DNA of 64,000 nucleotides from an uncultured Bacteroidota bacterium (GTDB lineage: Bacteria > Bacteroidota > Bacteroidia > JABEUT01): assembly GCA_903901055.1 (NCBI GenBank), contig CAIUPO010000107.1, positions 12,707 to 76,706 on the forward strand. Direction: 5' to 3'. Made by a program: the position numbers and the translations under genes. Under the pieces are notes generated by a model. The model was not told the DNA's origin. It did no database searches and worked only from the letters and a program-made list of their open reading frames with translations. This document shows positions 2,629 through 56,992 of this stretch, piece after piece; position 1 is the first letter of the stretch, and each line of letters starts with the position of its first letter.

Positions 2629-3903
2629 ATGAAAGTTGACATTTTATTGGGTTTGCAATGGGGCGATGAGGGCAAAGGCAAAGTAGTGGACGTGCTTGCA
2701 CCCAAATACGATATTGTTGCCCGTTTTCAGGGCGGACCCAATGCTGGGCATACGCTTGAAATAGGCACGGTTAAATACGTTCTTCATACAATACCTTCAG
2801 GGGTTTTTAATGAAAACATTCTGAATGTAATTGGCAATGGTGTGGTGATAGACCCTATTAGTTTCCTGGAAGAAGTAAGAGGGATTGAAGCACTTGGAAT
2901 TGAAATTTGCAAAAGGCTTGTAATCTCTACCCGCGCACATTTAATATTGCCTACCCACCGTTTACTTGATGCTTCATCCGAAGCTTCGAAGGGCAAGGAG
3001 AAAATCGGTTCTACGTTAAAAGGAATTGGCCCGGCATATATGGATAAAACAGGAAGAAACGGTTTACGCATCGGCGATATACTTGAACCCGACTTCAATA
3101 AACGATATGGATTTTTGGTGGAGAAACATAAACAGATTCTTGCTGCTGCAACAGGCTTTACTTATGACCATGCCAAACTTGCAGAAGATGAAAAGAAGTG
3201 GATGAACTGTATTGATTTTATCCGATCGCTTAAATGTACCGATACAGAATATTTACTCAATGATGCACTAAAAGCAGGCAAAAAAATTCTTGCTGAGGGT
3301 GCACAAGGCTCCTTGTTAGATATTGATTTCGGTTCTTATCCTTTTGTTACTTCTTCATCCACAACTTGTGCCGGAGCATGCATCGGGCTTGGTATAGCAC
3401 CTTCTACAATTGGTAGTGTAGTGGGAGTATTTAAAGCATACTGCACCCGGGTTGGTTCAGGCCCATTCCCAACAGAACAATTGAATGAGTTTGGAGATAA
3501 AATGTGTACCATTGGGCGCGAATTTGGCTCTACAACCGGAAGAAGAAGAAGATGCGGATGGCTGGATATTCCTACACTGAAGCGTGCAATTATATTAAAT
3601 GGGGTTACTTGCCTTAATATGATGAAAACCGATGTGCTGAATGATTTTGATGAGATACAAGTCTGCACACATTATGTAATTGGAGACAAGCAAACTGACC
3701 AGGTACCTTATGATTTGGGCTCAGCAAATATTAAGCCTATATACCGAACTTTTAAAGGCTGGGGCCAGATAAACGACATCAGTTCATGCGACAAATTACC
3801 TGAGGAACTTAAAACATATATTGCATTTATTGAAGAATCTGTAGGGGTGCCCATAAAACTTATTTCTATGGGTCCTGAGCGAAACCAGACGCTCACCAGG
3901 TGA
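2629..3903 (+). CDS. purA: adenylosuccinate synthetase
   Basis: 424 aa. N-terminal GDEGKGK P-loop, GGPNAGHT and GIGPAY motifs. Confidence 0.9.
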   Translation: MKVDILLGLQWGDEGKGKVVDVLAPKYDIVARFQGGPNAGHTLEIGTVKYVLHTIPSGVFNENILNVIGNGVVIDPISFLEEVRGIEALGIEICKRLVISTRAHLILPTHRLLDASSEASKGKEKIGSTLKGIGPAYMDKTGRNGLRIGDILEPDFNKRYGFLVEKHKQILAAATGFTYDHAKLAEDEKKWMNCIDFIRSLKCTDTEYLLNDALKAGKKILAEGAQGSLLDIDFGSYPFVTSSSTTCAGACIGLGIAPSTIGSVVGVFKAYCTRVGSGPFPTEQLNEFGDKMCTIGREFGSTTGRRRRCGWLDIPTLKRAIILNGVTCLNMMKTDVLNDFDEIQVCTHYVIGDKQTDQVPYDLGSANIKPIYRTFKGWGQINDISSCDKLPEELKTYIAFIEESVGVPIKLISMGPERNQTLTR

Positions 3904-16169: not shown

Positions 16170-18878
16170 ATGTTAAAGAAATTTTCCCCAATCATTATTT
16201 TATTGTGTATAGTACAAACCACTTTTGCCCAAATGTGGGGCGGAGGTGGAATGGGTGGTGGCATGAAAGGCGCCAAAGCAAAAGTAGGGCATTTTTATGG
16301 CAAGGTGGTTGATAGTTTAACCGGCAAATCAGTACCGTTTGCACCTGTTCAGTTGTCGGGCCAGCAATGGGATTCTGTTTCAAAAGCCATGAAAACAGTG
16401 GTTATTCAAGGATTGCTTACCGGAGATAACGGCGAATTCAGTTTTGAAAAACTGGCGGTGATGGGTACCTATACCATTGAAATTAACGCAATGGGATATA
16501 AACCTAAATCAGTTGTGACTTTTTTTGATATGAGTAAACTGATGAAAGCCGGACAAAAAATGCAATCGCAAAGCAGTGGTGATATGCCTAACATGTCGAA
16601 TGTGGAAAGTTTGCTGAACGCAATTGATAAGGATTTGGGAAATATTAAAGTGTCGTCCATAGCAAACCAGTTAAAGGATGTTACCGTGAATGGCAGTTCC
16701 CCGCCAATGGAACTTAAACTTGACAAACGTGTTTTTGATGTAAGTAAAAGCCTTACCACAGAGGGCGGTACAGCCGAAGATGTATTGAAAACGATCCCTT
16801 CGGTAAATGTGGATATTGATGGGAATGTTAAAATGCGCAATGCTTCGCCGACTATATATGTTGATGGGATGCCGACAACTTTAACCATTGACCAGATTCC
16901 GGCAGGGCAGATAGATAAGATAGAAGTGATTACTAATCCTTCAGCAAAGTATGATGCGTCTGCGGGCACGGGAGGTATCATCAATATTATTCTGAAACAT
17001 AAAAACACATTGGGTTATAATGGCTCACTGCGTTTGGGTGCCGATGAATATGGAAAAGTAAATGGCGGTTTTGATTTTAACGTTAGGCAAGGAAAAATAA
17101 ATGTGTTTCTCGATTTGCATGTACACCAGATAAAGCATAAAATGTATGGAAGTGAATATAAAGACACTGTTGCAAATCAGTCAAGCACTTCTCCTAAAAT
17201 TATCGACTACCAGAACGATACCAATACCATGGAGGGCTATTTTGCTTTTGCCAGATTGGGTTTCGACTACTTTATAGATAACCGCAATACATTAACTGTT
17301 TCCGGAATGCTAGTACGCGGAGATTTTAACTCAACCGATTTATTGCACACAAATAATGTTTATACTGATACACTTTCTTTGCCCAAGTTTATAAATGAGA
17401 ACTCTGCCTCCAGCAGGGTTTTTACGAGCCCCGGAGTTTCATTACTATACAAACACCTATTCCCGAAGGAAGATGAAAATATTACTGCAAGTGTAACCGC
17501 TAACCAAGGCTCTTCATCGGGAACCGGAAATTTTGACTTCCTGAATTACGACTTTAATAATGTGCTTTTATCATCGATAAACCAGATGCAGCAAAGCGGT
17601 GGCACAAACAAGTACTATGTGGGGAAACTGGATTATACCGACCCTTTATCTAAAAAAATAAAACTGGAAGCTGGTGTACAGTATACCTACAGCCAGGTAA
17701 ATTCGTACAGCAATTTCTATCTGAACGATATTTTCTTTAACGATGAAAGCAATACATACCTGTTCAATCAGTATGTGTATGCGGGTTATTTTACCTTCAG
17801 CGAAGACCTGAACAGCCGCTTAAGTTATCAGATAGCACTGCGTATGGAGCAATCAGTATATAACGGTACTGAAACCTCCGGTAGCACTTCAACGCCTTTG
17901 AACAATCAAAATTTGTTGAAACCTTTTCCGGGTGCATTTGTTACCTATCACCTTACCGAGAAAAGCGATTTGCAATTCAGTTACACTACCCATATTACAC
18001 GCCCTTCGTTCGCACAGTTGGTTGTGAAAAATAATTCGAACCCTGAGAATATTCAGGTGCCCAACCCTAACCTGAAACCCGCGTATCAGAACTCTTTCGA
18101 GTTTAATTATATGAATACGTTTAACAAACGTAATTCATTATTGCTGTCAGCATATTACAAAATCACGTACGATATTATTTCTACCCAAACAATCTCTTCG
18201 CAATACGATCCGATTTTAAAATTGCAGATTGACAGCACCACGTATGCTAATGCTAACTATGGCTACCAGGAAGGTGCAGAGGCAACCCTGCAAAACTCTA
18301 TTGGTAACTGGCTCGACATTACAACCAACTTTAATCTCTTTGAATCGGGTGTAAATGCTACCAACCTGAATATTCCAGATACTGCAAAAAAGTTCCTGAG
18401 CTATTTTGCCAAACTGAATCTAACTTTCAAACTACCTAAGAATTTCACTATACAGTTGAACGGAAGTTATCTTTCCAAGTCAAAAATTTCACCTGAAAGT
18501 GGCGGCGGTGGTGGCGGACGATGGGGTGGTGGCGGAGGCTATGGTGGAGGAATTTCTCCTTCTACCAGCGGATATATAGACCCAAATTATTCGTTGGATG
18601 TAGCTATTAAAAAAGAATTTTTCAAAAACAAAGCTTCAGTTACCTTGAATTGCAGGGATATTTTTGCAACTGCAAAAAATGGCTCTGAAGTTGTTGCAAC
18701 CTCGCTCGAAGGAGCTCCACTCTATTTCCAAACTACCAGCCGCACAAGGGATGTAAGGTTCTTCTCAATCAATCTTAGCTACCGCTTCGGACAAATGGAT
18801 GTTTCTATTTTCAAACATAAAAATAATAATATAGACGCCGGACCTGATATGGGTGGCGGTGGCGATAGCGGCAACTAG
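16170..18878 (+). CDS. outer-membrane beta-barrel family protein with N-terminal carboxypeptidase-regulatory-like domain (TonB-dependent-receptor-like)
   Basis: 902 aa. Signal peptide, GKVVDSLTGKSVPFAPVQL (CarbopepD_reg-like), and a long C-terminal region with beta-barrel character ending ...LSYRF. Unusual poly-Gly inserts (GGGGMGGGM; GGGGGGRWGGGGGYGGG; GGGGDSGN). Confidence 0.6.
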   Translation: MLKKFSPIIILLCIVQTTFAQMWGGGGMGGGMKGAKAKVGHFYGKVVDSLTGKSVPFAPVQLSGQQWDSVSKAMKTVVIQGLLTGDNGEFSFEKLAVMGTYTIEINAMGYKPKSVVTFFDMSKLMKAGQKMQSQSSGDMPNMSNVESLLNAIDKDLGNIKVSSIANQLKDVTVNGSSPPMELKLDKRVFDVSKSLTTEGGTAEDVLKTIPSVNVDIDGNVKMRNASPTIYVDGMPTTLTIDQIPAGQIDKIEVITNPSAKYDASAGTGGIINIILKHKNTLGYNGSLRLGADEYGKVNGGFDFNVRQGKINVFLDLHVHQIKHKMYGSEYKDTVANQSSTSPKIIDYQNDTNTMEGYFAFARLGFDYFIDNRNTLTVSGMLVRGDFNSTDLLHTNNVYTDTLSLPKFINENSASSRVFTSPGVSLLYKHLFPKEDENITASVTANQGSSSGTGNFDFLNYDFNNVLLSSINQMQQSGGTNKYYVGKLDYTDPLSKKIKLEAGVQYTYSQVNSYSNFYLNDIFFNDESNTYLFNQYVYAGYFTFSEDLNSRLSYQIALRMEQSVYNGTETSGSTSTPLNNQNLLKPFPGAFVTYHLTEKSDLQFSYTTHITRPSFAQLVVKNNSNPENIQVPNPNLKPAYQNSFEFNYMNTFNKRNSLLLSAYYKITYDIISTQTISSQYDPILKLQIDSTTYANANYGYQEGAEATLQNSIGNWLDITTNFNLFESGVNATNLNIPDTAKKFLSYFAKLNLTFKLPKNFTIQLNGSYLSKSKISPESGGGGGGRWGGGGGYGGGISPSTSGYIDPNYSLDVAIKKEFFKNKASVTLNCRDIFATAKNGSEVVATSLEGAPLYFQTTSRTRDVRFFSINLSYRFGQMDVSIFKHKNNNIDAGPDMGGGGDSGN

Positions 18879-18911
18879 TCGGGGCCCGACCGGCAGTCCG
18901 AGCCGGACGGG
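18873..18911. repeat. GC-rich palindromic element, family AACTAGTCGG...CCCGAC, copy A
   Basis: AACTAGTCGGGGCCCGACCGGCAGTCCGAGCCGGACGGG. The TAG inside it is the stop codon of the preceding gene. Confidence 0.5.
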
Positions 18912-18969
18912 CACTTCCGTCATTGCGAGGCTTTGCGAAGCAATCTTACTCAATTGCTAAAAACTTTTA

Positions 18970-19086
18970 CCACTAAGTCCACTAAGATTTCACTAAGCCT
19001 CACTAAGTTTTCTGAGTGTATCTTAGTGTGAATTTTCTTAGTGCACTTAGTGGTGAGAAATAATCAACCATTAAGTTTCACTAAGG
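18970..19086. repeat. block of four direct CACTAAG repeats followed by three inverted CTTAGTG repeats (long imperfect palindrome), copy A
   Basis: CCACTAAGTCCACTAAGATTTCACTAAGCCTCACTAAGTTTTCTGAGTG...CTTAGTGTG...CTTAGTGCACTTAGTGG. A homologous block lies at 54975..55057. Confidence 0.55.
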
Positions 19087-19120
19087 TTCAACCGCTTTTT
19101 ATACTTAAAAACCGCCTAAA

Positions 19121-19260
19121 ATAACAGGAACGTATCAGGAGCCATAACAGGAGCATAACAGGGAAAGAACAGGAACCATAACAGGAAAGTGTGTTTTTAA
19201 TGCTACTTGAATATGAATGAGTTACAAAATCTCCATCTGTTAATAACAGGCCGGAACAGG
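19121..19260. promoter_or_regulatory. array of six A/TAACAGG direct repeats at about 11-12 bp phasing, plus the conserved core TAATAACAGGCCGGAACAGG
   Basis: AACAGG/TCAGG starts at 19123, 19135, 19146, 19157, 19168 and 19180, with two more at 19245 and 19255. A homologous array lies at 54639..54773. Confidence 0.5.
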
Positions 19261-19517
19261 AAATGTGTTTCCAGATTTTTTCTAAAAAAGTCAGCAGGAT
19301 TATAGTTATTTTTGTTTTCATAACACAAAGGTAATTCATCAAATATGCTTTTTGAAAAAGTCATTGACCGGGTGTCCAATTATTTTTGAACAGTGCTTTT
19401 CAAAATAAAATTCCTTTTGTTAGGAATTAAATTAACAGAGATAAAAGAGAGCAAAAAGACACGTATTAGTGGCATTTTGAAAAAGAAGATGTTTAATAAC
19501 TTTTGTTATCTTTGTTT

Positions 19518-21168
19518 AATGAAAAGATTTGTTCTTCTTATATTCATTTTTAGTTTTTCACTTTGTGAGGGGCAGAGTTGGGTGTGGGGGAGGGATTGTT
19601 CTGCAGGATATGATCCGATTTCATGCAACATTGCGGGAGATACGAAAGGAAATGGATTTTTATTTGGATCATTTGATTCAGTAGTATCATTCGGAACCTA
19701 CAAATTGACAGGACCTCCTACAAGAAGGAACGATTATTTAGTAAAATATGATACCCTTGGTAGTATACTTTGGATTAAGCAAATCTATGGTAACCCGGGT
19801 TATATTATTGGCAATACAGATTATTCTGATAACATGTATATTTCGGGCGGATACATTGATTCTGTGCGATTTGATAGTCTTACTTTTGCAAGTATGGCTT
19901 CTCCAGCCTATTTAGTGAAATATTCTCCAAGCGGGAAACTTAATTGGGGCATTCAGTTCACAGGGAACTATATTGCCGCCTCTTCAATTGCATTTGATGA
20001 TTCATCGAATGTCTTCCTGTCAGGATTCACCAAAGGCAGTATGCAATTTGGAACTCTGAATTATACGGGGCCTACCACGAATGAATTCTTTATTGTGAAA
20101 TATAATTCAGCGGGTGTTCCACAATGGGCGCGCTATCCTACTAGTATTGCTTCCGGTAACTCAAATAGTTCTTCTATATTTTGTGATAGACAGGGGAATG
20201 CCTATGTAACTGGCGTATTTCATGACTCCATTATTGTTGGGAGTACCACGTTAAAGAGTAAAGGATCTTCTGATATCTTTCTTGTAAAATTTGATGGAAA
20301 CGGAAATGTGTTATGGGCAAAACAATCGTTTGCACAAACCCGATTTGATGCTATATTATCGAATGGAATGATAACTGATGATGCGAATAATATCTATTTA
20401 GCCGGGCAAATAGAAGGCGTAGTCACTATTGGCAGCACAAACTTGAATATTCCAGGGTTTCCCCCTTCTGTTTACTTGGCTAAATTTGATGAAAATGGGA
20501 ATTCTCTTTGGGTTAAAGTTTCGCAGCCTAGCTTAGCAAATGCCTATAGCCTCACCAGGGATATTTGTGATAACATTTATATGGCTGTAGGTGAAAGCGA
20601 TTCCAGCGAATTTATTATTTCTACAGATACGGTAATAACAAACCCCGGTAATGGTTTATATATAGCGTTTGATACTTCGGGTCATGTTATTTCTTCCGCC
20701 AATCTTTATTCAGTAGGTGACGATTATGATTGTATCGCCTCTAACCCGCGAGGTAATTCTGTTTTTGCAGGAGGTGATATATTAAGCACAATTGTTGTCG
20801 GTAGTGATACATTAACTCCAGTTGGAGAACTCCCTTTTATTGCCCGTTGGAATAATCCAGGGTGCAAAGATGTTAGCAATATTTCATCTGTTTCTTCACT
20901 GCACCAATCTATAATGCTTTTCCCCAACCCCAATACCGGCAAATTCACAATTCAGTTGTCGGGGGTTAGTGGTAATCCCGATGGCTATCAGGAGTCAGTT
21001 GAAATTTATAATGTGCTTGGAGAGAAAGTCACTATTGCGACCCTGAAACAAGTTCAGGGTGACTACAAAATTGACTTAACCAATCAACCCAATGGAATTT
21101 ATCTTTACCGCGTTATTTCGGAAGAAGGAAATTTGGTGGGAGAAGGGAAGTTTGTGATTACTCACTAA
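19518..21168 (+). CDS. T9SS C-terminal-sorting-domain cargo protein with beta-propeller (SBBP-like) repeats, paralog 1
   Basis: Signal peptide MKRFVLLIFIFSFSLCEGQSW. Repeated ...YD..GN..W.KQ... blades. C-terminal FPNPNTGKFTIQLSG...IYLYRVISEEGNLVGEGKFVITH is a Por_Secre_tail-type T9SS CTD. Start taken at the ATG at 19518; the ORF-track start at 19393 lies in the conserved upstream regulatory region. Confidence 0.7.
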
Positions 21169-21173
21169 TACGG

Positions 21174-21296
21174 TTAACCGCAAAGAGCGCAAAGATTTAC
21201 GCCCGCCTGAACGGAACGGGCAGGCAAAGGTCGCTACGCTTTTACACTTGGCGAACTTTGCGGGCTGTTTCTTTGCGGACTTTGCGTGAAATTGTT
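21174..21296. repeat. palindromic GCAAAGTCCGCAAAG / CTTTGCGGACTTTGC element immediately 3' of T9SS paralog 1
   Basis: TTAACCGCAAAGAGCGCAAAG ... CGCAAAGGTCGCTACGCTTTTACACTTGGCGAACTTTGCGGGC ... CTTTGCGGACTTTGCG. Confidence 0.45.
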
Positions 21297-21340
21297 CTTG
21301 ACTAAAATTTCTCTTATCTTTACTTTCTCTAAATCAGGTT

Positions 21341-23074
21341 ATGAAAAAAATAATTTTACTTTTTTTACTATTCATTTTTAGTTTTTCATTTTGTGAAGGA
21401 CAAAAGTGGTTATGGGGAACCCAAGGGACTGTTGCAAGTGGCAACTCATCGGGAGAAGGTTGCGATATAACAACAGATAGATATGGCAACGTTTTTGTGG
21501 GTGGGAATGTATATGGCAATGTGCATGTTGGAATTTATTCTTTAAGTAGTTCCATTAATTATACATCTGCATATTTAATAAAATATAAATCAGATGGAAC
21601 CGTTTTATGGGCAAAACAGTCAATGAATTTTAGCCCAAATGGACAAGGTTTTGAACATAGTATAAGTGCTGATATCTCCGGAAATATATACGCGGCAGGG
21701 GCGGCTTCAAATATTATAACTTTTGGAGTGGATACGGTACATGGAAATTCAAACTTGGGTTATACCAATAGCTTTTTGACTAAATACGATTCTAATGGAA
21801 ATGTTATCTGGGTTCAGCAGTCAAAAGGGAACGCCAGTAATTGTTCGGCTACAGGCTATGGTGCTTGCATTGATAATAATAAAAATATATATTTGACTGG
21901 TGGGTTCGATCAGATAGAATATTTCGACACTCAATTGCTTTCTAATCCCGTTCCAACGGCATTTCTTGTAAAGTATGATTCTTCCGGAAATGTAATTTGG
22001 GCCAAACAATCAAAAAGTTCTCCGGGTACGTCTACAGGAGTAGGTAGCAAAGTGGTTACAGATTCAAGGGGTAATATTTATGTTGCTGGTGGATTTTCAG
22101 ATAGTATACGCTTTGAAAATGATTCACTTTCAACCGTATGTGGTATATCAGGAGGAGATATTTTTTTGGCAAAATATAATTCTACTGGAAATGTTTTGTG
22201 GGTAACACAAGCTAACGTATATACCCCTTCTGCATTTGCGTCAATATACGGCTTTGCGATTGACAAAAATTCGAATACTTATATCACAGGACAATTTATG
22301 GATAGCGTTAGCTTCGGGCCAATTAAATTAATTTCTACAAGCGCTTCTCCTTATGATATTTTTATTGTTAAATATGATTCCAATGGAAATCCAATATGGG
22401 CCAAAACAGCCCAAACGTATTATGGCGCATTCTGGAGTTGTTACTCTATTGCTCCGGATACCAATGGGAATATTTATGTTTCTCTTGGCGGTGGCGGTGC
22501 AGGACCTAACTATGCAATTAAATATGGAACAAGAGTCTTTAGTGTGCCCGGAGTAGTATACGATGGTGCTTCTGTAATAATGAAACTCGATACATCAGGT
22601 AAATTATTATGCGGAAACATAGTTGGAGGTGGAGGTGATGATTGGAATGGCGTAGCGTGCAATCTAGCAGGGAATTGCGTTTATTTTGGTGGTGATTTTT
22701 GGGCTAATGCGGTATTTGGAAAAGATACTCTCAGCCTGCTAGCAAGTGAGGTTCCTTTTTTAGCTAAATGGTTGCCCTGTGGTGAAGTAATTACATCAGA
22801 TAATACCAATCAAAATGTAGATTTACCTTCCCTCTCCATTTTCCCCAACCCATCCTCCGGCAAATTCACAATTCAGTTATCGGGGGTTAGTGGTAAGTCT
22901 TCAGTTGAAATTTATAATGTAATGGGGCAGAGAGTCACTATTGCGACCCTGAAACAAGTTCAGGGTGACTACAAAATTGACTTAACAAGTCAACCCAACG
23001 GAATTTATCTGTACCGCGTTATTTCTGAAGAAGGAAATTTGTTGGGAGACGGGAAGTTTGTGATTACGCACTAA
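21341..23074 (+). CDS. T9SS C-terminal-sorting-domain cargo protein with beta-propeller repeats, paralog 2
   Basis: MKKIILLFLLFIFSFSFCEGQKWLWG signal peptide. The last ~70 codons are nearly identical at the nucleotide level to paralog 1. Confidence 0.7.
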   Translation: MKKIILLFLLFIFSFSFCEGQKWLWGTQGTVASGNSSGEGCDITTDRYGNVFVGGNVYGNVHVGIYSLSSSINYTSAYLIKYKSDGTVLWAKQSMNFSPNGQGFEHSISADISGNIYAAGAASNIITFGVDTVHGNSNLGYTNSFLTKYDSNGNVIWVQQSKGNASNCSATGYGACIDNNKNIYLTGGFDQIEYFDTQLLSNPVPTAFLVKYDSSGNVIWAKQSKSSPGTSTGVGSKVVTDSRGNIYVAGGFSDSIRFENDSLSTVCGISGGDIFLAKYNSTGNVLWVTQANVYTPSAFASIYGFAIDKNSNTYITGQFMDSVSFGPIKLISTSASPYDIFIVKYDSNGNPIWAKTAQTYYGAFWSCYSIAPDTNGNIYVSLGGGGAGPNYAIKYGTRVFSVPGVVYDGASVIMKLDTSGKLLCGNIVGGGGDDWNGVACNLAGNCVYFGGDFWANAVFGKDTLSLLASEVPFLAKWLPCGEVITSDNTNQNVDLPSLSIFPNPSSGKFTIQLSGVSGKSSVEIYNVMGQRVTIATLKQVQGDYKIDLTSQPNGIYLYRVISEEGNLLGDGKFVITH

Positions 23075-23079
23075 TACTC

Positions 23080-23163
23080 TTAACTGCAAAGTCCGCAAAG
23101 GTCGCTACGCTTTTACACTTGGCGAACTTTGCGGGCTGTTTCTTTGGGGACTTTGCGGTTAAC
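23080..23163. repeat. shorter copy of the GCAAAGTCCGCAAAG palindromic element 3' of T9SS paralog 2
   Basis: TTAACTGCAAAGTCCGCAAAGGTCGCTACGCTTTTACACTTGGCGAACTTTGCGGGCTGTTTCTTTGGGGACTTTGCGGTTAA. Confidence 0.45.
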
Positions 23164-23177
23164 GTATTTAAAGGAAA

Positions 23178-49086: not shown

Positions 49087-49120
49087 AAGTTCAGCATGAC
49101 CATGAGTTACTAATAATTGC

Positions 49121-49146
49121 CAGTCGGGCTCCGACCGACTAGTTCC
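49121..49146. repeat. GC-rich palindromic element, family AACTAGTCGG...GCCCGACTGG, copy C (reverse orientation), overlapping hpf stop codon
   Basis: The reverse complement reads GGAACTAGTCGGTCGGAGCCCGACTGG. The TAG within it is the hpf stop (..RGN*). Confidence 0.5.
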
Positions 49147-53280: not shown

Positions 53281-54558
53281 TTGCAGGGAACAAATCGCTG
53301 CATAATGCCCGGGCTATTTAGAGTTAGTATTGGAATTGCACTTTCCTCCATCAGGGGGCAGTTGCTTCGTACTATCCTTACCATTATGATTATTGCCATC
53401 GGCATTACAGCATTAGTTGGTATCCTTACACTTATTGATGCTATGAAGTCGGCTATTAACAGCAACTTTACCCAAATGGGTGCTAACACGTTTGCCATAC
53501 GCAATCAGGATGCGAACATACGCATAGGAAGAAAAGGCAAAAAACCTAAGATTTATAGAAATATAACCTTCGATGAAGCTGAGGCATTTGCCCAGCAATA
53601 TACTTTCCCGGCTGAAGTTTCTGTAACCAATGATGCTTCGGACATTGCCACCGTGAAATTTGAAAAGGAAAAAACCGACCCGAATGTTGAAGTAGATGGA
53701 ACGGACCAGAATTTTATCGTCACTTCAGGATATACATTAAGTCAGGGTAGAAATTTTTCTCCGGAAGAAATTAAAGACGGCCGGCGCGTAATCATCATCG
53801 GGCAGGATATTGCCAAAAGCCTTTTTAAAAAGCACGAAGACCCTATTAATAAAGTGGTAAGTATTGGAGTAGGGGGCGAGTATAAAATAATTGGCGTTCT
53901 CAAATCGAAAGGTAACAGTTTTGGTTTTGGAGGTGATCGTATTGCTTTACTGCCAATTCCTGTGGTCCGTTCATTCTCGCATTTAATGGATGTCGGCGAC
54001 CTGACCTTCACCATAAGCGTGTTGGTGCATAACCCTGCCCTTATGGATGCAGCTATCAGCGAGGCGAAAGGCACCTTTCGAACCATACGGCGAGATAAGA
54101 TTGGTGAAGAAGAAGATTTCGGAATTATTAAAAGTGATGACCTTTCGAATGTATTGATTAGCCAACTATCAAAAATGTCGATAGGTGCTATTGTTATTGG
54201 CATCATTACGCTCTTTGGCGCGGCTATCGGGTTAATGAACATTATGCTGGTTTCGGTTACCGAACGCACTACGGAAATAGGCATTCGCAAATCACTTGGC
54301 GCCACCCGCCGGATTATACGAAACCAGTTTTTAATAGAAGCAATTGTCATTTCTCAATTGGGTGGTTTGCTTGGAATAATTCTGGGATTAATAGCCGGCG
54401 TATTAATTTCTTTCCTGTTCATGATTGATTTTGTTGTCCCCTGGACATGGATTGGCCTGGCAATAACTATATGCTTTATTGTAGGTGTAATTTCGGGCAT
54501 ATATCCTGCCATAAAAGCCGCCAAGCTTGACCCAATTGAGGCGTTGCGATACGAATAA
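53281..54558 (+). CDS. ABC-transporter permease, FtsX/MacB-like, with periplasmic MacB_PCD-like domain
   Basis: 425 aa with 4 TM helices and a large loop between TM1 and TM2. Conserved C-terminal GIRKSLGATRR..I..QFLIEA motif. Confidence 0.7.
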   Translation: MQGTNRCIMPGLFRVSIGIALSSIRGQLLRTILTIMIIAIGITALVGILTLIDAMKSAINSNFTQMGANTFAIRNQDANIRIGRKGKKPKIYRNITFDEAEAFAQQYTFPAEVSVTNDASDIATVKFEKEKTDPNVEVDGTDQNFIVTSGYTLSQGRNFSPEEIKDGRRVIIIGQDIAKSLFKKHEDPINKVVSIGVGGEYKIIGVLKSKGNSFGFGGDRIALLPIPVVRSFSHLMDVGDLTFTISVLVHNPALMDAAISEAKGTFRTIRRDKIGEEEDFGIIKSDDLSNVLISQLSKMSIGAIVIGIITLFGAAIGLMNIMLVSVTERTTEIGIRKSLGATRRIIRNQFLIEAIVISQLGGLLGIILGLIAGVLISFLFMIDFVVPWTWIGLAITICFIVGVISGIYPAIKAAKLDPIEALRYE

Positions 54559-54638
54559 TAATAGTTCGTTATTGCCGGCTGACTGAAATATTTTAAAGCG
54601 AAACATTTTATTTTCGTTATAGAATGAAATTTACAATT

Positions 54639-54773
54639 AACAGGGATGTAACAGGAAGGGGAACAGAAAACATCTGGAAAAATAACAGGAGTTAAACTGA
54701 GAAAGGGAAAACTTAATTCATTGAAAATCATGTTTGTGATTTTTCGTTTTCCTGTTATTAACAGGCCGGAACA
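54639..54773. promoter_or_regulatory. A/TAACAGG repeat array plus palindrome CCTGTTATTAACAGG plus conserved core TTATTAACAGGCCGGAACAG (copy B)
   Basis: AACAGG at 54639 and 54650, AACAGA at 54662, AACAGG at 54684. The palindrome is at 54751..54765. Homologous to 19121..19260. Confidence 0.45.
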
Positions 54774-54974
54774 GAAAATTATTTTATATATAAGAACGCA
54801 CATTATAATATTCGATATAAGTATTATTGGGCATTTTTGTGATATGTGGTTCATCATTTCCATTTATCTTGAAGGGTACTTGTTCTCCTTAAAAACAAAT
54901 ATACTGCATGGAAAAGTGTTTTTTGAAAAAGTCATTGACTTTTGAAAAGTAAAACATTTTACCGCTAAATTTAC

Positions 54975-55057
54975 CACTAAGTTCACAAAGAAAAGGCACA
55001 CTAAGTTTCACTAAGTTTTCTGAGTGAGGCTTAGTGAAATCTTAGTGCACTTAGTGG
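54975..55057. repeat. CACTAAG xN / CTTAGTG xN palindromic block, copy B
   Basis: CCACTAAGTTCAC...CACACTAAGTTTCACTAAGTTTTCTGAGTGAGGCTTAGTGAAATCTTAGTGCACTTAGTGG. Shares the centre CACTAAGTTTTCTGAGTG with copy A. TTTTGAAAAAGTCATTGAC is at 54925..54943. Confidence 0.5.
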
Positions 55058-55101
55058 TAAAAAAATCAAATTAACAGGGATAAGAGTGAACAAAAGACAC
55101 T

Positions 55102-55139
55102 AACTAGTGGGACCGAATTAGGTCGGAAGCCCGACTGGC
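55102..55139. repeat. GC-rich palindromic element family, copy B
   Basis: AACTAGTGGGACCGAATTAGGTCGGAAGCCCGACTGG. Confidence 0.45.
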
Positions 55140-55231
55140 AATTATCTGAAAATATTTTCACACTACTCTTCCATATCAAGCTCTTGCGTATCAGTAAGAA
55201 ATAATTGTATATTTACTTTATCATAAGGAAC

Positions 55232-56992
55232 ATGAAAAAAATAATTCTCCTTATTTCATTATTCATTTTTAGTTTTTCACTTTGTGAGGGGCAGAGTTGG
55301 TTGTGGGAAAGGTCTACTCTGGGGATTGCCTGTAATGTTTCTGTAGCAAGCGATGATAATGGAAATTGCTTTCAGGCTGGTTTCATGATTAGAGATACAG
55401 TATCATTTGGAACGGATACATTGAGAGATAATTCGAATAACTACGATGCTTTCATCGTGAAATACTCACCGGCCGGAAATGTGATATGGGCGAAACAATC
55501 AGAACAAAAAGGCAATCGTATTTATTCTAATGGATATACCATAACTACCGACAAGGATGGTAATGCTTACTTAATGGCAAATTTAATGGATACACTTATT
55601 TTTGATTCAGATACCTTAAAAACACAGGGAAGCGGATTCCCAGATACATACCTTGTAAAATTTGATGCAAATGGAACTGAGAAATGGGCAAGGGAATCAT
55701 CAGTGCCTTCTCCCACTTCTTTTCCTGCTGGCAATTATTCCTCTACTGATGCAAACGGTAATACTTACATCACTGGCTTTTTTATGGACACTGTGAGTTT
55801 TGGCAACGATACTTTGAAGTGTTTAATAGATTCTGCCGGTGATACTTTTTTAACCAAGTATGATGTAAATGGAAATGAAAAGTGGGCTAGGCAATCTGCT
55901 GGGTTTAGCCCATATGGTTCTGAAGCGCGCTTTGTAGCGGCAAATAATAGCGGTAAAGTTTTTATTGCGGGCGTATTTTCGGATAGCGTAACATTCGGTA
56001 ATTATAAACTCACTACTGTAGATGCATATAATTATGATATGTTCGTAGTAAGTTATGATACCAACGGTAAGGTTTTGTGGGGCAGACAAGCGGTTATTCC
56101 TTCTTCGGCAAGTGGAGTATGGTGTTATGGAATAACTGTAGATAATGCAGGAAATGTTTATGTTAGTGGTTCATTTATAGATACTGTGGTTTTTGGTACT
56201 GACACACTTATCAATAATGCCTCCAATTATGCATGGTATGCTTTACCTTATATGGAGACTGAGTGTCCATTTATCGTAAAGTACAATGCTTTGGGTGAAG
56301 TGGTATGGACCTTTCAACCTAAAATCCTTGACCATAATCGATGGTTTTCCACTTCATTGTCTTCCGATTGTCATGGTAATATTTATTATATAGGTGATGG
56401 AGGATTGCCAGACAGTTTATGCAAAATAGCTTTTCAATCCGATATTTTATCTCTAATCGATACATCATATTTCGATGTTCCTCTTTATATGATTAAAATG
56501 GATACATCAGGGAACGTGAACTGCGCAACGATTATAAGATGTGGCGGAACTAGCTACAGCAATATGGTCTCGTCAGATACATCAGGCAATTATGTTTATT
56601 TAGGTGCAAATGGAGGGACAGTTCAAATTTTTGGCTCGGACACACTAAACCCATTCAAAAAAAACTCAATGGATGCTTCTTTTGTAGCGAGATGGAACGG
56701 GTGTGATAACCCACTTTACGTTAATAACATTATATTAGATGAAATCAAAATAATTGCCTTCCCCAACCCCTCCAACGGCACGTTCACACTCCAAACTTCC
56801 GGCGCACAAAATTTTTCATCCGCAACTATTGAAATTTATAATGTGCTTGGGGAGAGAGTTAAGAGCGAAGAACTAAGAGCTAAGAGTGAAGAAATAGATT
56901 TAACAGGCCAACCCAACGGAATTTATCTCTATAGGGTTTTAAACGAAGATGGTACTTTATTAGGTCAGGGGAAAATAGTTGTAGAAAAATAA
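55232..56992 (+). CDS. T9SS C-terminal-sorting-domain cargo protein with beta-propeller repeats, paralog 3
   Basis: MKKIILLISLFIFSFSLCEGQSWLWE signal. C-terminal FPNPSNGTFTLQTSG...IYLYRVLNEDGTLLGQGKIVVEK is a T9SS CTD. Confidence 0.7.
   Translation: MKKIILLISLFIFSFSLCEGQSWLWERSTLGIACNVSVASDDNGNCFQAGFMIRDTVSFGTDTLRDNSNNYDAFIVKYSPAGNVIWAKQSEQKGNRIYSNGYTITTDKDGNAYLMANLMDTLIFDSDTLKTQGSGFPDTYLVKFDANGTEKWARESSVPSPTSFPAGNYSSTDANGNTYITGFFMDTVSFGNDTLKCLIDSAGDTFLTKYDVNGNEKWARQSAGFSPYGSEARFVAANNSGKVFIAGVFSDSVTFGNYKLTTVDAYNYDMFVVSYDTNGKVLWGRQAVIPSSASGVWCYGITVDNAGNVYVSGSFIDTVVFGTDTLINNASNYAWYALPYMETECPFIVKYNALGEVVWTFQPKILDHNRWFSTSLSSDCHGNIYYIGDGGLPDSLCKIAFQSDILSLIDTSYFDVPLYMIKMDTSGNVNCATIIRCGGTSYSNMVSSDTSGNYVYLGANGGTVQIFGSDTLNPFKKNSMDASFVARWNGCDNPLYVNNIILDEIKIIAFPNPSNGTFTLQTSGAQNFSSATIEIYNVLGERVKSEELRAKSEEIDLTGQPNGIYLYRVLNEDGTLLGQGKIVVEK

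What the first reader, a model, noticed from the sequence alone, without database searches (positions are those of the whole stretch)
18970..19086. CACTAAG / CTTAGTG multi-repeat palindrome blocks (second copy 54975..55057)
Each block consists of three or four direct CACTAAG heptamers followed by three inverted CTTAGTG copies around a shared centre, CACTAAGTTTTCTGAGTG. That gives a palindrome of roughly 90 bp that could form a cruciform or long RNA hairpin, or bind a dimeric protein at multiple half-sites. The two copies sit in the same neighbourhoods as the AACAGG arrays but in different order and orientation relative to the downstream T9SS genes. That behaviour is more like a small mobile or miniature inverted-repeat element or a shuffled regulatory module than a simple promoter.
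Basis: seen in the sequence. Interest (0 to 1): 0.55.

Follow-up and report, generated by a model that had tools for sequence, protein, structure and literature searches.

The report
Empty heptamer-palindrome of a nuclease-carrying repeat
The two CACTAAG/CTTAGTG blocks are gene-less copies of a widespread bacterial repeat whose full-length form carries a small nuclease gene of unknown function (GxxExxY) in the loop of the same palindrome, so they are mobile-element-like DNA and not switches for the neighbouring secretion genes.

Summary
Fourteen of the 16 CACTAAG heptamers in the window lie in two ~90-nt palindromes, 18965-19058 and 54970-55062. Each has four heptamers per arm around a TTTT loop, and each folds strongly (z -6 and -8).

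The palindromes are not tied to T9SS genes. The same architecture, TTTTACC-(CAC-NN-AG)x3-5 ... (CT-NN-GTG)x3-5-GGTAAAA, occurs in at least 120 genome loci. Most are in Bacteroidota and some in other phyla. The copies sit in intergenic spacers beside unrelated housekeeping genes, usually just after a gene's 3' end.

The main new result concerns about 135-aa GxxExxY proteins (PF13366/TIGR04256), which have a Cas4/RecB-like PD-(D/E)XK fold. In 61 of 71 loci encoding one, the gene sits inside such a palindrome. The CAC-NN-AG array ends near the ATG and the CT-NN-GTG array starts just after the stop. The gene is co-oriented with the upstream host gene (61 of 63). The heptamer type co-diverges with the protein.

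One orthologous hisS-hutH site holds the gene-carrying form in one organism and the empty hairpin in another. Both window sites lack the multi-heptamer palindrome in the related contigs that could be read.

The window copies are therefore the empty, MITE-like or target-like form. Mobility and the nuclease's role are inferred, not shown.

The parts
18965..19058 (.). Copy 1: complete gene-less heptamer-array palindrome (TTTTACC ... GGTGAGAAA)
   Evidence: Sequence read. Inverted repeat I1/I6. Single hairpin of -44.9 kcal/mol, z -6.2.
18971..19007 (+). Copy 1, 5' arm: four direct CACTAAG at 18971, 18980, 18991 and 19001 (periods 9, 11 and 10 nt)
19008..19011 (.). Copy 1 apical loop TTTT. This is the position where full-length elements carry the GxxExxY gene.
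   Evidence: Gene position in full-length elements.
19012..19054 (+). Copy 1, 3' arm: degenerate CTGAGTG (19012), CTTAGTG at 19022, 19037 and 19046, then terminal GT
19069..19085 (+). Stray half-arm fragment CATTAAGtttCACTAAG just outside copy 1
   Evidence: Direct-repeat family D5.
54970..55062 (.). Copy 2: complete gene-less heptamer-array palindrome (TTTACC ... GGTAAAA)
   Evidence: Sequence read. Inverted repeats I1/I2. Hairpin of -42.8 kcal/mol, z -8.0. 86% identical to copy 1.
54975..55015 (+). Copy 2, 5' arm: CACTAAG (54975), degenerate CACAAAG (54985), CACTAAG (54999, 55009)
55016..55019 (.). Copy 2 apical loop TTTT
55020..55058 (+). Copy 2, 3' arm: CTGAGTG (55020), CTTAGTG at 55030, 55041 and 55050, then terminal GT
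54957..54968 (+). Degenerate extra terminal fragment TTTTACCGCTAA directly upstream of copy 2
   Evidence: Inverted repeat I10.

Best explanation
Each block is a gene-less copy of a repeat-element family. The family is built from an array of 3-5 direct heptamers CAC-NN-AG with an 8-10 nt period, then a loop, then the same number of inverted heptamers CT-NN-GTG. The ends are capped by ACC...GGT and by T-rich and A-rich flanks. In the full-length form, the loop holds a gene of about 400 nt for a GxxExxY protein. This is a minimal PD-(D/E)XK nuclease with a Cas4/RecB/lambda-exonuclease-like fold. The gene reads in the same direction as the upstream host gene, so it is probably expressed by read-through.

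What is shown: the family membership, the shared architecture, the nesting of the gene, its fixed orientation, the co-divergence of heptamer type with the protein, the dispersed intergenic location, and presence or absence at orthologous sites.

What is inferred: the heptamer arrays are the cis-acting sites of a selfish, nuclease-associated element. They are probably bound as repeated half-sites by the element's own protein or by a host factor. The empty palindromes in this window would then be either miniature non-autonomous derivatives (MITE-like) or unoccupied targets into whose apex the nuclease gene can be copied (homing-like).

For the two window genes downstream, the palindromes are most likely incidental passengers. 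If transcribed, each folds into a hairpin of about 85 nt that has no U-tail. It could be a processing or stability site but is not an intrinsic terminator.
For: My own estimate of the chance expectation, assuming uniform base composition, is about 25. Almost all hits show extra heptamers and the ACC/GGT caps.

The copies are intergenic. Of the flanking gene pairs, 72 are tandem, 22 convergent and 7 divergent. The median distance is 36 nt from a gene's 3' end and 107 nt from a 5' end. The neighbours are unrelated housekeeping genes.

Three genome loci have a GxxExxY gene flanked by the arms. Starting from the protein side, 61 of 71 metagenomic GxxExxY loci have at least 2 correctly oriented heptamers on both sides. 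There are 177 forward against 45 reverse heptamers upstream, and 198 reverse against 35 forward downstream. The median gap is 7 nt from the last heptamer to the ATG and 5 nt from the stop to the first heptamer.

A k-mer test that did not assume the motif gave 20-27x enrichment of CACTA, ACTAA and CTAAG. CAC-to-CAC spacing is 8-10 nt. After each CAC, position 6 is A in 99% and position 7 is G in 96% of cases.

The majority heptamer core matches between the two arms in 32 of 45 loci. The protein's nearest neighbour has the same heptamer type in 59 of 66 cases, against 28.8 in shuffles (maximum 42).

The gene is co-oriented with the upstream gene in 61 of 63 loci.

At one site, hisS-[element]-hutH carries the gene in L193 and the empty hairpin in L118.

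Related contigs lack the window's multi-heptamer palindromes at the orthologous sites. L123/L124 are empty and L125 has a one-heptamer mini-hairpin. L219 and L220 have no CACTAAG element.

The architecture also holds in RefSeq isolates, Bacteroides finegoldii and Bernardetia, where no repeat or mobile-element feature is annotated.

The AlphaFold model has pLDDT 90.5. Its best PDB match is Cas4 SSO0001 (TM 0.53), followed by lambda exonuclease.
Against: No GxxExxY gene lies in this 64-kb window. I could not check the rest of the genome.

No target-site duplication could be defined, because the flanks are themselves palindromic T- and A-runs.

No identical copies were seen within one genome, so nothing shows recent transposition. 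The two window copies are 86% identical.

Nobody has shown that GxxExxY binds or cuts these arrays. It is not a known transposase family, and the PDB fold matches are weak (E = 2e-3).

The near-absolute co-orientation with the upstream gene would also fit an RNA-level role for the arms.

The genome loci were selected with an exact CACTAAG pattern, so taxon counts and copy numbers are lower bounds and are biased toward this heptamer type.
Confidence: 0.6

Rival explanations
1. RNA-level element. The arms exist to form a long stem in read-through transcripts. The stem would be an RNase III-type processing or stability structure that releases or controls the nested GxxExxY mRNA, as the stems of 23S rRNA intervening sequences do. 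Empty hairpins would be relics left after gene loss, or would serve as mRNA 3' stabilisers or processing sites between host genes.
For: Both window copies fold far better than shuffles. The nested gene is co-oriented with the upstream gene in 61 of 63 loci, and the arms abut the start and stop codons. The copies lie close to gene 3' ends.
Against: Position-specific complementarity does not exceed the family level. Mirrored heptamer cores match in 43% of cases against 37% for non-mirrored pairs (p = 0.41). Spacers are Watson-Crick complementary at 34% of positions, the same as in shuffles. The better-folding strand does not correlate with the direction of the flanking genes. All heptamers within an arm share one sequence, which a helix does not require. 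No Rfam family matches.
Confidence: 0.22
2. REP element mobilised by a RAYT (Y1 HUH transposase), as in classical REPtrons.
For: The element is extragenic, palindromic and multi-copy, and it lies near gene 3' ends. Bacteroidetes have their own RAYT subclass with 'atypical' REPs (PMC6006769). Relatives carry a Y1_Tnp gene at the site orthologous to copy 2.
Against: The REPs published for the Bacteroidetes subclass 2.6 are 24-nt GC-rich hairpins with a GCTAG foot. CACTAAG and CTTAGTG do not occur in that paper's supplementary tables. Y1_Tnp is not among the 25 most frequent families next to the hairpins. No GT[AG]G or CGTC foot is present. The partner found here is a PD-(D/E)XK protein, not a Y1 protein.
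Confidence: 0.05
3. Operator array for a dimeric transcription factor that controls the downstream T9SS cargo genes.
For: Both window copies lie upstream of paralogous SBBP/Por_Secre_tail genes. They share the neighbourhood with TAACAGG arrays and with two short conserved modules.
Against: In other genomes the same palindrome sits next to rpsB, gap, metK, grpE, lpxB, ligA, hisS and other housekeeping genes. Por_Secre_tail occurs in only 4 of 101 genes whose 3' end faces a hairpin. The distance to the downstream start is 465 nt for one copy and 175 nt for the other. The element occurs across phyla that lack T9SS.
Confidence: 0.04
4. Rho-independent transcription terminators of the upstream genes.
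For: They are strong hairpins shortly after stop codons.
Against: The consensus scan finds no terminator-like site in either intergenic region. The family consensus has the T-run before the stem and the A-run after it on both strands, which is the reverse of a terminator. Heptamer sequence conserved across phyla is not expected for terminators. Full-length copies hold a gene that must be read through.
Confidence: 0.04

Closest known systems
Miniature inverted-repeat transposable elements (MITEs such as Correia and Nezha; own knowledge)
   Same: They are short and non-coding and consist essentially of two inverted ends. They are multi-copy and intergenic, and they share their ends with a longer gene-carrying element. 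They show presence/absence differences between relatives.
   Different: Here the ends are arrays of a 7-nt unit rather than a single TIR. No target-site duplication was found. The gene-carrying partner encodes a PD-(D/E)XK nuclease of about 135 aa, not a known transposase. That gene has a fixed orientation relative to the host gene.
REP/BIME elements and their RAYT transposases (PMC6006769, PMC3733652)
   Same: They are extragenic imperfect palindromes near gene 3' ends, and the family is associated with one small nuclease-type gene flanked by the repeats.
   Different: There is no GT[AG]G, CGTC or GCTAG foot. The element is about 90 nt rather than 20-40 nt. It has an iterated heptamer structure. 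The partner is PD-(D/E)XK, not HUH/Y1. The partner gene is itself multi-copy and nested inside the palindrome.
23S rRNA intervening sequences carrying a small ORF inside a long stem (Leptospira and Coxiella S23p/four-helix-bundle genes; own knowledge)
   Same: A small gene of unknown function is nested in the loop of a long stem and transcribed as part of a host transcript.
   Different: These elements lie between protein-coding genes, not in rRNA. The arms are heptamer arrays. RNase III processing has not been tested.
Homing endonuclease genes (own knowledge)
   Same: They are a compact nuclease gene occupying a precise position within a conserved recognition sequence, with 'empty' and 'occupied' alleles. 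One such site pair was seen here (hisS-hutH).
   Different: The putative target here is a repeated palindrome present at many loci, not a unique conserved gene. No intron or intein context exists. Cleavage has not been shown.
Heptad iteron operators of the omega repressor of inc18 plasmids (WATCACW heptads in direct and inverted arrays; own knowledge)
   Same: They are arrays of 7-bp units in direct and inverted orientation, read as repeated half-sites by one small protein.
   Different: The sequence, context and protein family are unrelated. In omega operators the units are contiguous, whereas here they are spaced by 1-3 nt. The comparison is an analogy for how arrays can be read and makes no claim of relationship.

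Membership tests
   Window copies. Family consensus.
   The loops are TTTT. tblastn finds no GxxExxY gene anywhere in the window. The window copies are therefore the gene-less form. The same form occurs next to or instead of gene-carrying copies elsewhere.
   Copy 1 lies 93 nt after the TonB-dependent receptor gene. Copy 2 lies 417 nt after the FtsX-like permease gene. Both upstream genes are on the + strand.
MITE | Short non-coding element made of terminal inverted repeats, multi-copy | tested here: met
MITE | Shares its ends with a longer coding element | tested here: met
   The same arms flank GxxExxY genes.
MITE | Target-site duplication | tested here: inconclusive
   The flanks are palindromic T- and A-runs. 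No filled/empty pair close enough to define the element's boundaries was available.
MITE | Partner gene is a transposase that acts on the ends | not testable with these tools
   The partner has a Cas4/lambda-exonuclease-like PD-(D/E)XK fold. Its activity is unknown (PMC3424549).
MITE | Presence/absence polymorphism between relatives | tested here: met
   Site 1 is empty in L123/L124 and has a mini-hairpin in L125. Site 2 has no CACTAAG element in L219 or L220.
REP/RAYT (REPtron) | 20-40 nt palindrome with a conserved GT[AG]G, CGTC or (subclass 2.6) GCTAG foot | tested here: not met
   Sequence read. The published subclass 2.6 REPs differ, and CACTAAG is absent from that paper's supplements.
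REP/RAYT (REPtron) | Repeats flank a Y1/HUH transposase gene | tested here: not met
   Y1_Tnp is not among the 25 most frequent neighbour families. The associated gene is PDDEXK_3.
Intrinsic (Rho-independent) terminator | GC-rich stem-loop followed by a U-tract | tested here: not met
   No terminator-like site in 18800-19600 or 54500-55300. An A-run follows the stem on both strands.
Any Rfam RNA family | Covariance-model score at or above the gathering threshold | tested here: not met
   No hit in the whole window at gathering thresholds. The permissive scan gave only sub-threshold generic miRNA-precursor hairpin matches.
Integron attC site | R''/R' core sites (RYYYAAC ... GTTRRRY) in cassette arrays | tested here: not met
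   The ends are ACCAC...GTGGT. The neighbours are housekeeping genes, not cassette arrays. The core-site consensus is from my own knowledge.
Operator array of a T9SS-cargo regulon | Consistent association with T9SS cargo genes | tested here: not met
   Por_Secre_tail occurs in 4 of 101 genes whose 3' end faces a hairpin, and it is not among the top families on the side facing gene 5' ends.

The most novel reading that the evidence does not exclude
GxxExxY proteins form a family of about 28,000 clusters at 50% identity with no known function. They may be the nucleases of a previously undescribed class of selfish element. In this reading the nuclease gene lives in the apex of a palindrome built from arrays of its own heptamer recognition sites. 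It spreads either by moving together with the arms or by cutting empty palindromes and being copied into them, which would be homing into a repeated target. The empty palindromes, including the two in this window, would be its dispersed landing pads or miniature derivatives, found in Bacteroidota and several other phyla.
Probability: 0.35. Interest if true: 0.85.

Novelty: new variant of a known kind. Interest (0 to 1): 0.66.

Why it matters
The work gives three things.

First, it supplies a name and a search pattern for a repeat that clutters intergenic regions of many Bacteroidota and can be mistaken for regulatory sites, sRNAs or terminators.

Second, it supplies a concrete handle on a very large protein family of unknown function. 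GxxExxY (PF13366) has 28,226 clusters at 50% identity at E <= 1e-3. Steczkiewicz et al. 2012 list its function as 'Unknown' (PMC3424549). Its probable cis sites, its fixed orientation and its insertion context are now defined, so binding, cleavage and mobility assays can be designed directly.

Third, if the nuclease acts on its own flanking arrays, this would be a compact sequence-programmable nuclease/site pair. The heptamer cores vary between elements (TA, GG, AG, AT and others) and co-diverge with the protein.

I found no description of this association in the searchable literature or in RefSeq feature annotation. That library is incomplete, and curators of TIGR04256 may have noted it.

Tried and rejected
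- Rfam: the gathering-threshold scan of the whole window and the permissive E-value scan of 18850-19550 found nothing beyond generic miRNA-like hairpin matches.
- Strand-specific RNA signal: some Chitinophagaceae copies show TTT opposite RGG spacers (G-U pairs on one strand). However, the difference in folding energy between the two strands does not correlate with flanking gene direction (Mann-Whitney p = 0.80).
- Base-pair covariation: mirrored heptamer cores are not more complementary than controls in gene-carrying copies or in gene-less copies. The crude register assignment limits that test. Mirrored spacers are not more complementary than shuffles either.
- RAYT/REP link: I read Quentin et al. 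2018 and its supplements. The Bacteroidetes REPs listed there are different sequences.
- Neighbour-gene enrichment: no family dominates.
- Phage link: only 13 hits in IMG/VR.
- Local search for GxxExxY genes among the 120 genome loci: only 3 were found.
- PDB sequence searches with the single protein and with a profile found nothing. PHROGs gave nothing, and PADLOC gave only weak Cas4 hits.
I repeated it with database homologues.
- The closest relatives (P0002 at 78% identity and P0242 at 89%) had no retrievable DNA. The empty-site comparisons therefore rest on relatives at 67-80% protein identity.
- Literature searches for the heptamer, GxxExxY, PDDEXK_3 and Bacteroidetes MITE/REP terms found no description of the element.

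Full report
**1.

CACTAAG occurs 16 times in the window on both strands, against 5.7 +/- 2.2 expected. Fourteen of these lie in two blocks. Reading the sequence shows that each block is a 4+4 palindrome.
- Copy 1 reads TTTTACC-CACTAAG-tc-CACTAAG-attt-CACTAAG-cct-CACTAAG-TTTT-CTGAGTG-tat-CTTAGTG-tgaatttt-CTTAGTG-ca-CTTAGTG-GT.
- Copy 2 is its close relative, with one degenerate CACAAAG in the 5' arm.

The two copies are 86% identical over 90 nt. As single strands they fold into one long imperfect hairpin each, at -44.9 and -42.8 kcal/mol with z-scores of -6.2 and -8.0. No third CAC-NN-AG cluster exists in the window.

Both copies lie in unusually long intergenic regions, about 18879-19518 and 54559-55232. 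Upstream are a TonB-dependent receptor gene and an FtsX-like permease gene. Downstream are two SBBP/Por_Secre_tail (T9SS cargo) paralogues. Those paralogues are only 32% identical, so the palindromes are not leftovers of one duplicated segment.

**2. It is a widespread repeat family and not a local regulatory device**

One scan of 185,579 species-representative genomes used the pattern CACTAAG-N(2-4)-CACTAAG-N(4-34)-CTTAGTG. It stopped at its 120-locus limit. My own estimate of the chance expectation, assuming uniform base composition, is about 25 matches.

The hits share more than the pattern required:
- extra heptamers, up to 5+5;
- degenerate CAC-NN-AG units;
- ACC...GGT caps;
- a T-run before the element and an A-run after it.

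Most hits are from Bacteroidota: Saprospiraceae, Chitinophagaceae (including at least ten loci in Pinibacter aurantiacus), Flavobacteriales, Bacteroidales and Cytophagales. Others come from Ignavibacteria, Balneolaceae, Cloacimonadota, Lentisphaerae, Acidobacteriota, Micavibrio and other Alphaproteobacteria, Anaerolineales and Syntrophobacteraceae.

The copies are almost always intergenic. Flanking gene pairs are tandem in 72 cases, convergent in 22 and divergent in 7. The median distance is 36 nt from a gene's 3' end and 107 nt from a 5' end. The neighbouring genes are an arbitrary set of housekeeping genes. A T9SS sorting domain occurs in only 4 of 101 genes whose 3' end faces a hairpin.

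The palindromes are not Rfam families. They are not terminator-like, because no T-tail follows the stem. They are not the REPs described for the Bacteroidetes RAYT subclass.

**3. The full-length form carries a nuclease gene in the loop**

Three genome loci showed a gene of about 136 aa lying between or directly beside the arms: L069, L061 and L046. It is a GxxExxY protein (TIGR04256, E = 5e-42; PF13366 PDDEXK_3).

I then started from the protein side. A metagenome scan with an alignment of these three proteins gave 511 confirmed relatives, of which the best 80 were kept. Their flanks are strikingly uniform. A typical locus reads ...ACC-CACTAAG-a-CACTAAG-nn-CACTAAG-aaa-CACTAAG-a-ATG [gene] TAA-nn-CTTAGTG-nnn-CTTAGTG-nn-CTTAGTG-n-CTTAGTG-GTAAAA.

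The numbers are as follows.
- 61 of 71 loci with enough flank have at least 2 correctly oriented heptamers on both sides.
- Upstream there are 177 forward and 45 reverse heptamers. Downstream there are 198 reverse and 35 forward.
- The median gap is 7 nt from the last heptamer to the ATG (often 0-3 nt) and 5 nt from the stop to the first heptamer.
- A k-mer test that did not assume the motif gave 20-27x enrichment of CACTA, ACTAA and CTAAG on both sides. CAC-to-CAC spacing is 8, 9 or 10 nt. After each CAC, position 6 is A in 99% and position 7 is G in 96% of cases.

The two central bases of the heptamer differ between elements (TA, TT, TG, GG, AG, AT). The majority core is the same in both arms in 32 of 45 loci. 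The core also tracks the protein: the nearest protein neighbour has the same heptamer group in 59 of 66 cases, against 28.8 in shuffles with a maximum of 42.

The gene points the same way as the upstream host gene in 61 of 63 loci. This argues for expression by read-through.

The architecture recurs in RefSeq-annotated isolates.
- Bacteroides finegoldii has radA-GxxExxY-FAD protein, with ACCACAGAG-ga-CGCAGAG-ga-CACGGAG ... CTCTGTG-ac-CTCTGTG-tc-CTCTGTGGTG.
- Bernardetia sp. shows the same layout.

Neither record annotates a repeat or mobile-element feature there.

More distant family members are also embedded in repeats, of other kinds:
- Gemmatirosa has ACCGCAGAG/CTCTGCGGT arrays.
- Sphingomonas has ACGCGAAG arrays upstream only, between fabD and fabG.
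- Treponema has a simple inverted repeat.
- Fusobacteria and Prevotella have direct repeats.

**4. The empty and filled forms are linked**

Many gene-carrying loci have complete gene-less palindromes of the same heptamer type right next to them, for example L141, L163, L164, L186, L199 and L209.

One orthologous site shows both states. Between hisS (47% identical between the two organisms) and hutH (57% identical), L193 holds the gene-carrying element and L118 holds the empty palindrome.

For the window's own sites, I compared related contigs.
- L123/L124 (TonB-dependent receptor 70% identical) has the receptor followed after 56 nt by the S41 peptidase gene. It has no palindrome, no TAACAGG arrays and no T9SS genes.
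- L125 (67% identical) has only a one-heptamer mini-hairpin, GTACCCACTAAG-cataa-CTTAGTGGGTAC.
- Downstream of the permease gene, L219 has no spacer at all. L220 and the P0242 contig carry a Y1_Tnp gene instead, with no CACTAAG element.

**5. What the arms are**

Two tests for fine base-pair covariation were negative. The better-folding strand does not follow gene direction. What is conserved is the heptamer itself. It is iterated with a period of roughly 8-10 nt and is the same within an arm. Spacers and loops drift freely. That pattern suits repeated binding sites for one factor better than a tuned RNA helix. The inverted arrays will nonetheless pair if single-stranded or extruded as a cruciform.

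The encoded protein models confidently (pLDDT 90.5). Its best PDB matches are Cas4 SSO0001 (TM 0.53) and lambda/alkaline exonucleases, with weak E-values of 2e-3 and above. PADLOC gives faint Cas4 hits. It has the D...E-x-K motif. No solved structure matches by sequence. The published survey of the PD-(D/E)XK superfamily lists its function as unknown, with 'multiple transfers' between lineages (PMC3424549). The family has 28,226 clusters at 50% identity.

**6. Most likely mechanism**

The following is inferred, not shown. I read the whole as a small selfish element: a nuclease gene plus arrays of cis sites. It settles in spacers downstream of genes and relies on host transcription. The gene-less palindromes would be either its miniature non-autonomous derivatives or the unoccupied targets into whose apex the gene is copied. 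The tight fit of the ORF between the innermost heptamers and the TTTT-only loops of the window copies suit the second version.

The main rival is an RNA-processing stem, by analogy with 23S rRNA intervening sequences that carry a small ORF. It is favoured by the strict co-orientation of the gene and disfavoured by the lack of covariation.

For this window the practical conclusion is that the two palindromes are passengers. The features more likely to matter for the T9SS paralogues are the TAACAGG arrays and the 20- and 28-nt shared modules nearby. I did not pursue those.

**7. Limits**
- No target duplication or recent identical copies were seen.
- The genome loci were selected by an exact heptamer pattern, and the metagenome loci represent one GxxExxY subfamily (52-92% identity to the query).
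- The nearest relatives of the window organism had no retrievable DNA.
- The absence of prior description rests on an incomplete literature library.

Noticed in passing
window 19121-19186, 19244-19262, 54635-54690, 54751-54765, 55072-55078: TAACAGG occurs 26 times in the window against 6.9 expected. It forms direct arrays with start-to-start spacings of 11, 23 and 34 nt in both long intergenic regions upstream of the T9SS SBBP paralogues. This motif is separate from the palindrome and is a better candidate for a regulator-binding array.
   Followed up: no
window 19237-19264 vs 54752-54779, and 19349-19368 vs 54920-54939: A 28-nt module (TTAATAACAGGCCGGAACAGG...) is 93% identical between the two intergenic regions. 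A 20-nt module (TTTTTGAAAAAGTCATTGAC) is 100% identical. Their order relative to the palindrome differs between the two regions. They may be promoter or operator parts of the paralogous T9SS genes.
   Followed up: partly
window 18877-18900, 55118-55145, 49105-49140 (- strand); L125 8712-8735: A small GC-rich hairpin module, GTCGGnnGCCCGAC-YGGCAATTAT, is present three times in the window against 0.17 expected. It also follows the orthologous receptor gene in L125. It looks REP-like. Relatives carry a Y1_Tnp gene with a YxxxQxxHH signature at the site orthologous to copy 2.
   Followed up: partly
window 18879-23177 compared with L123 8649-8705 and the P0002 contigs: The spacer between the TonB-dependent receptor gene and the S41 peptidase gene is a variable hotspot. 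Relatives hold no, one or two different T9SS cargo genes there, including one Peptidase_S74 protein. This window holds two SBBP paralogues plus a repeat-rich leader of about 640 nt.
   Followed up: partly
window 19393-19518: The mechanically listed GTG start at 19393 (and the start used for the 583-aa gene called in the public assemblies) is probably too far upstream. The signal peptide MKRFVLLIFIFSFSLCEGQSW begins at 19519 and matches the paralogue's MKKIILLISLFIFSFSLCEGQSW at 55232.
   Followed up: partly
L069 1847-3061 (hsdS), 2383-2435 and 3010-3034: In a type I R-M operon, one palindrome lies in frame inside the hsdS ORF and one 5' arm overlaps its start. Both translate to LSALSALSG-like peptides. 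A GxxExxY gene sits between hsdS and hsdR. This recalls the in-frame REP and RPE insertions described in other bacteria.
   Followed up: no
L119 3900-5600; L085 5111-5199 and 7587-7754; L054 4724-5110; L061 7208-7535: Some genomes carry tandem arrays of whole palindromes or of 5' half-arms only. Some also carry other heptamer-type repeat families side by side, for example CTCTGCGGT and TAAGGTT units in L119.
   Followed up: no
protein representatives P0364-P0366, P0369, P0372 and others: Many GxxExxY family members are 260-295 aa long with two matched stretches, so they are tandem fusions of two nuclease domains.
   Followed up: no
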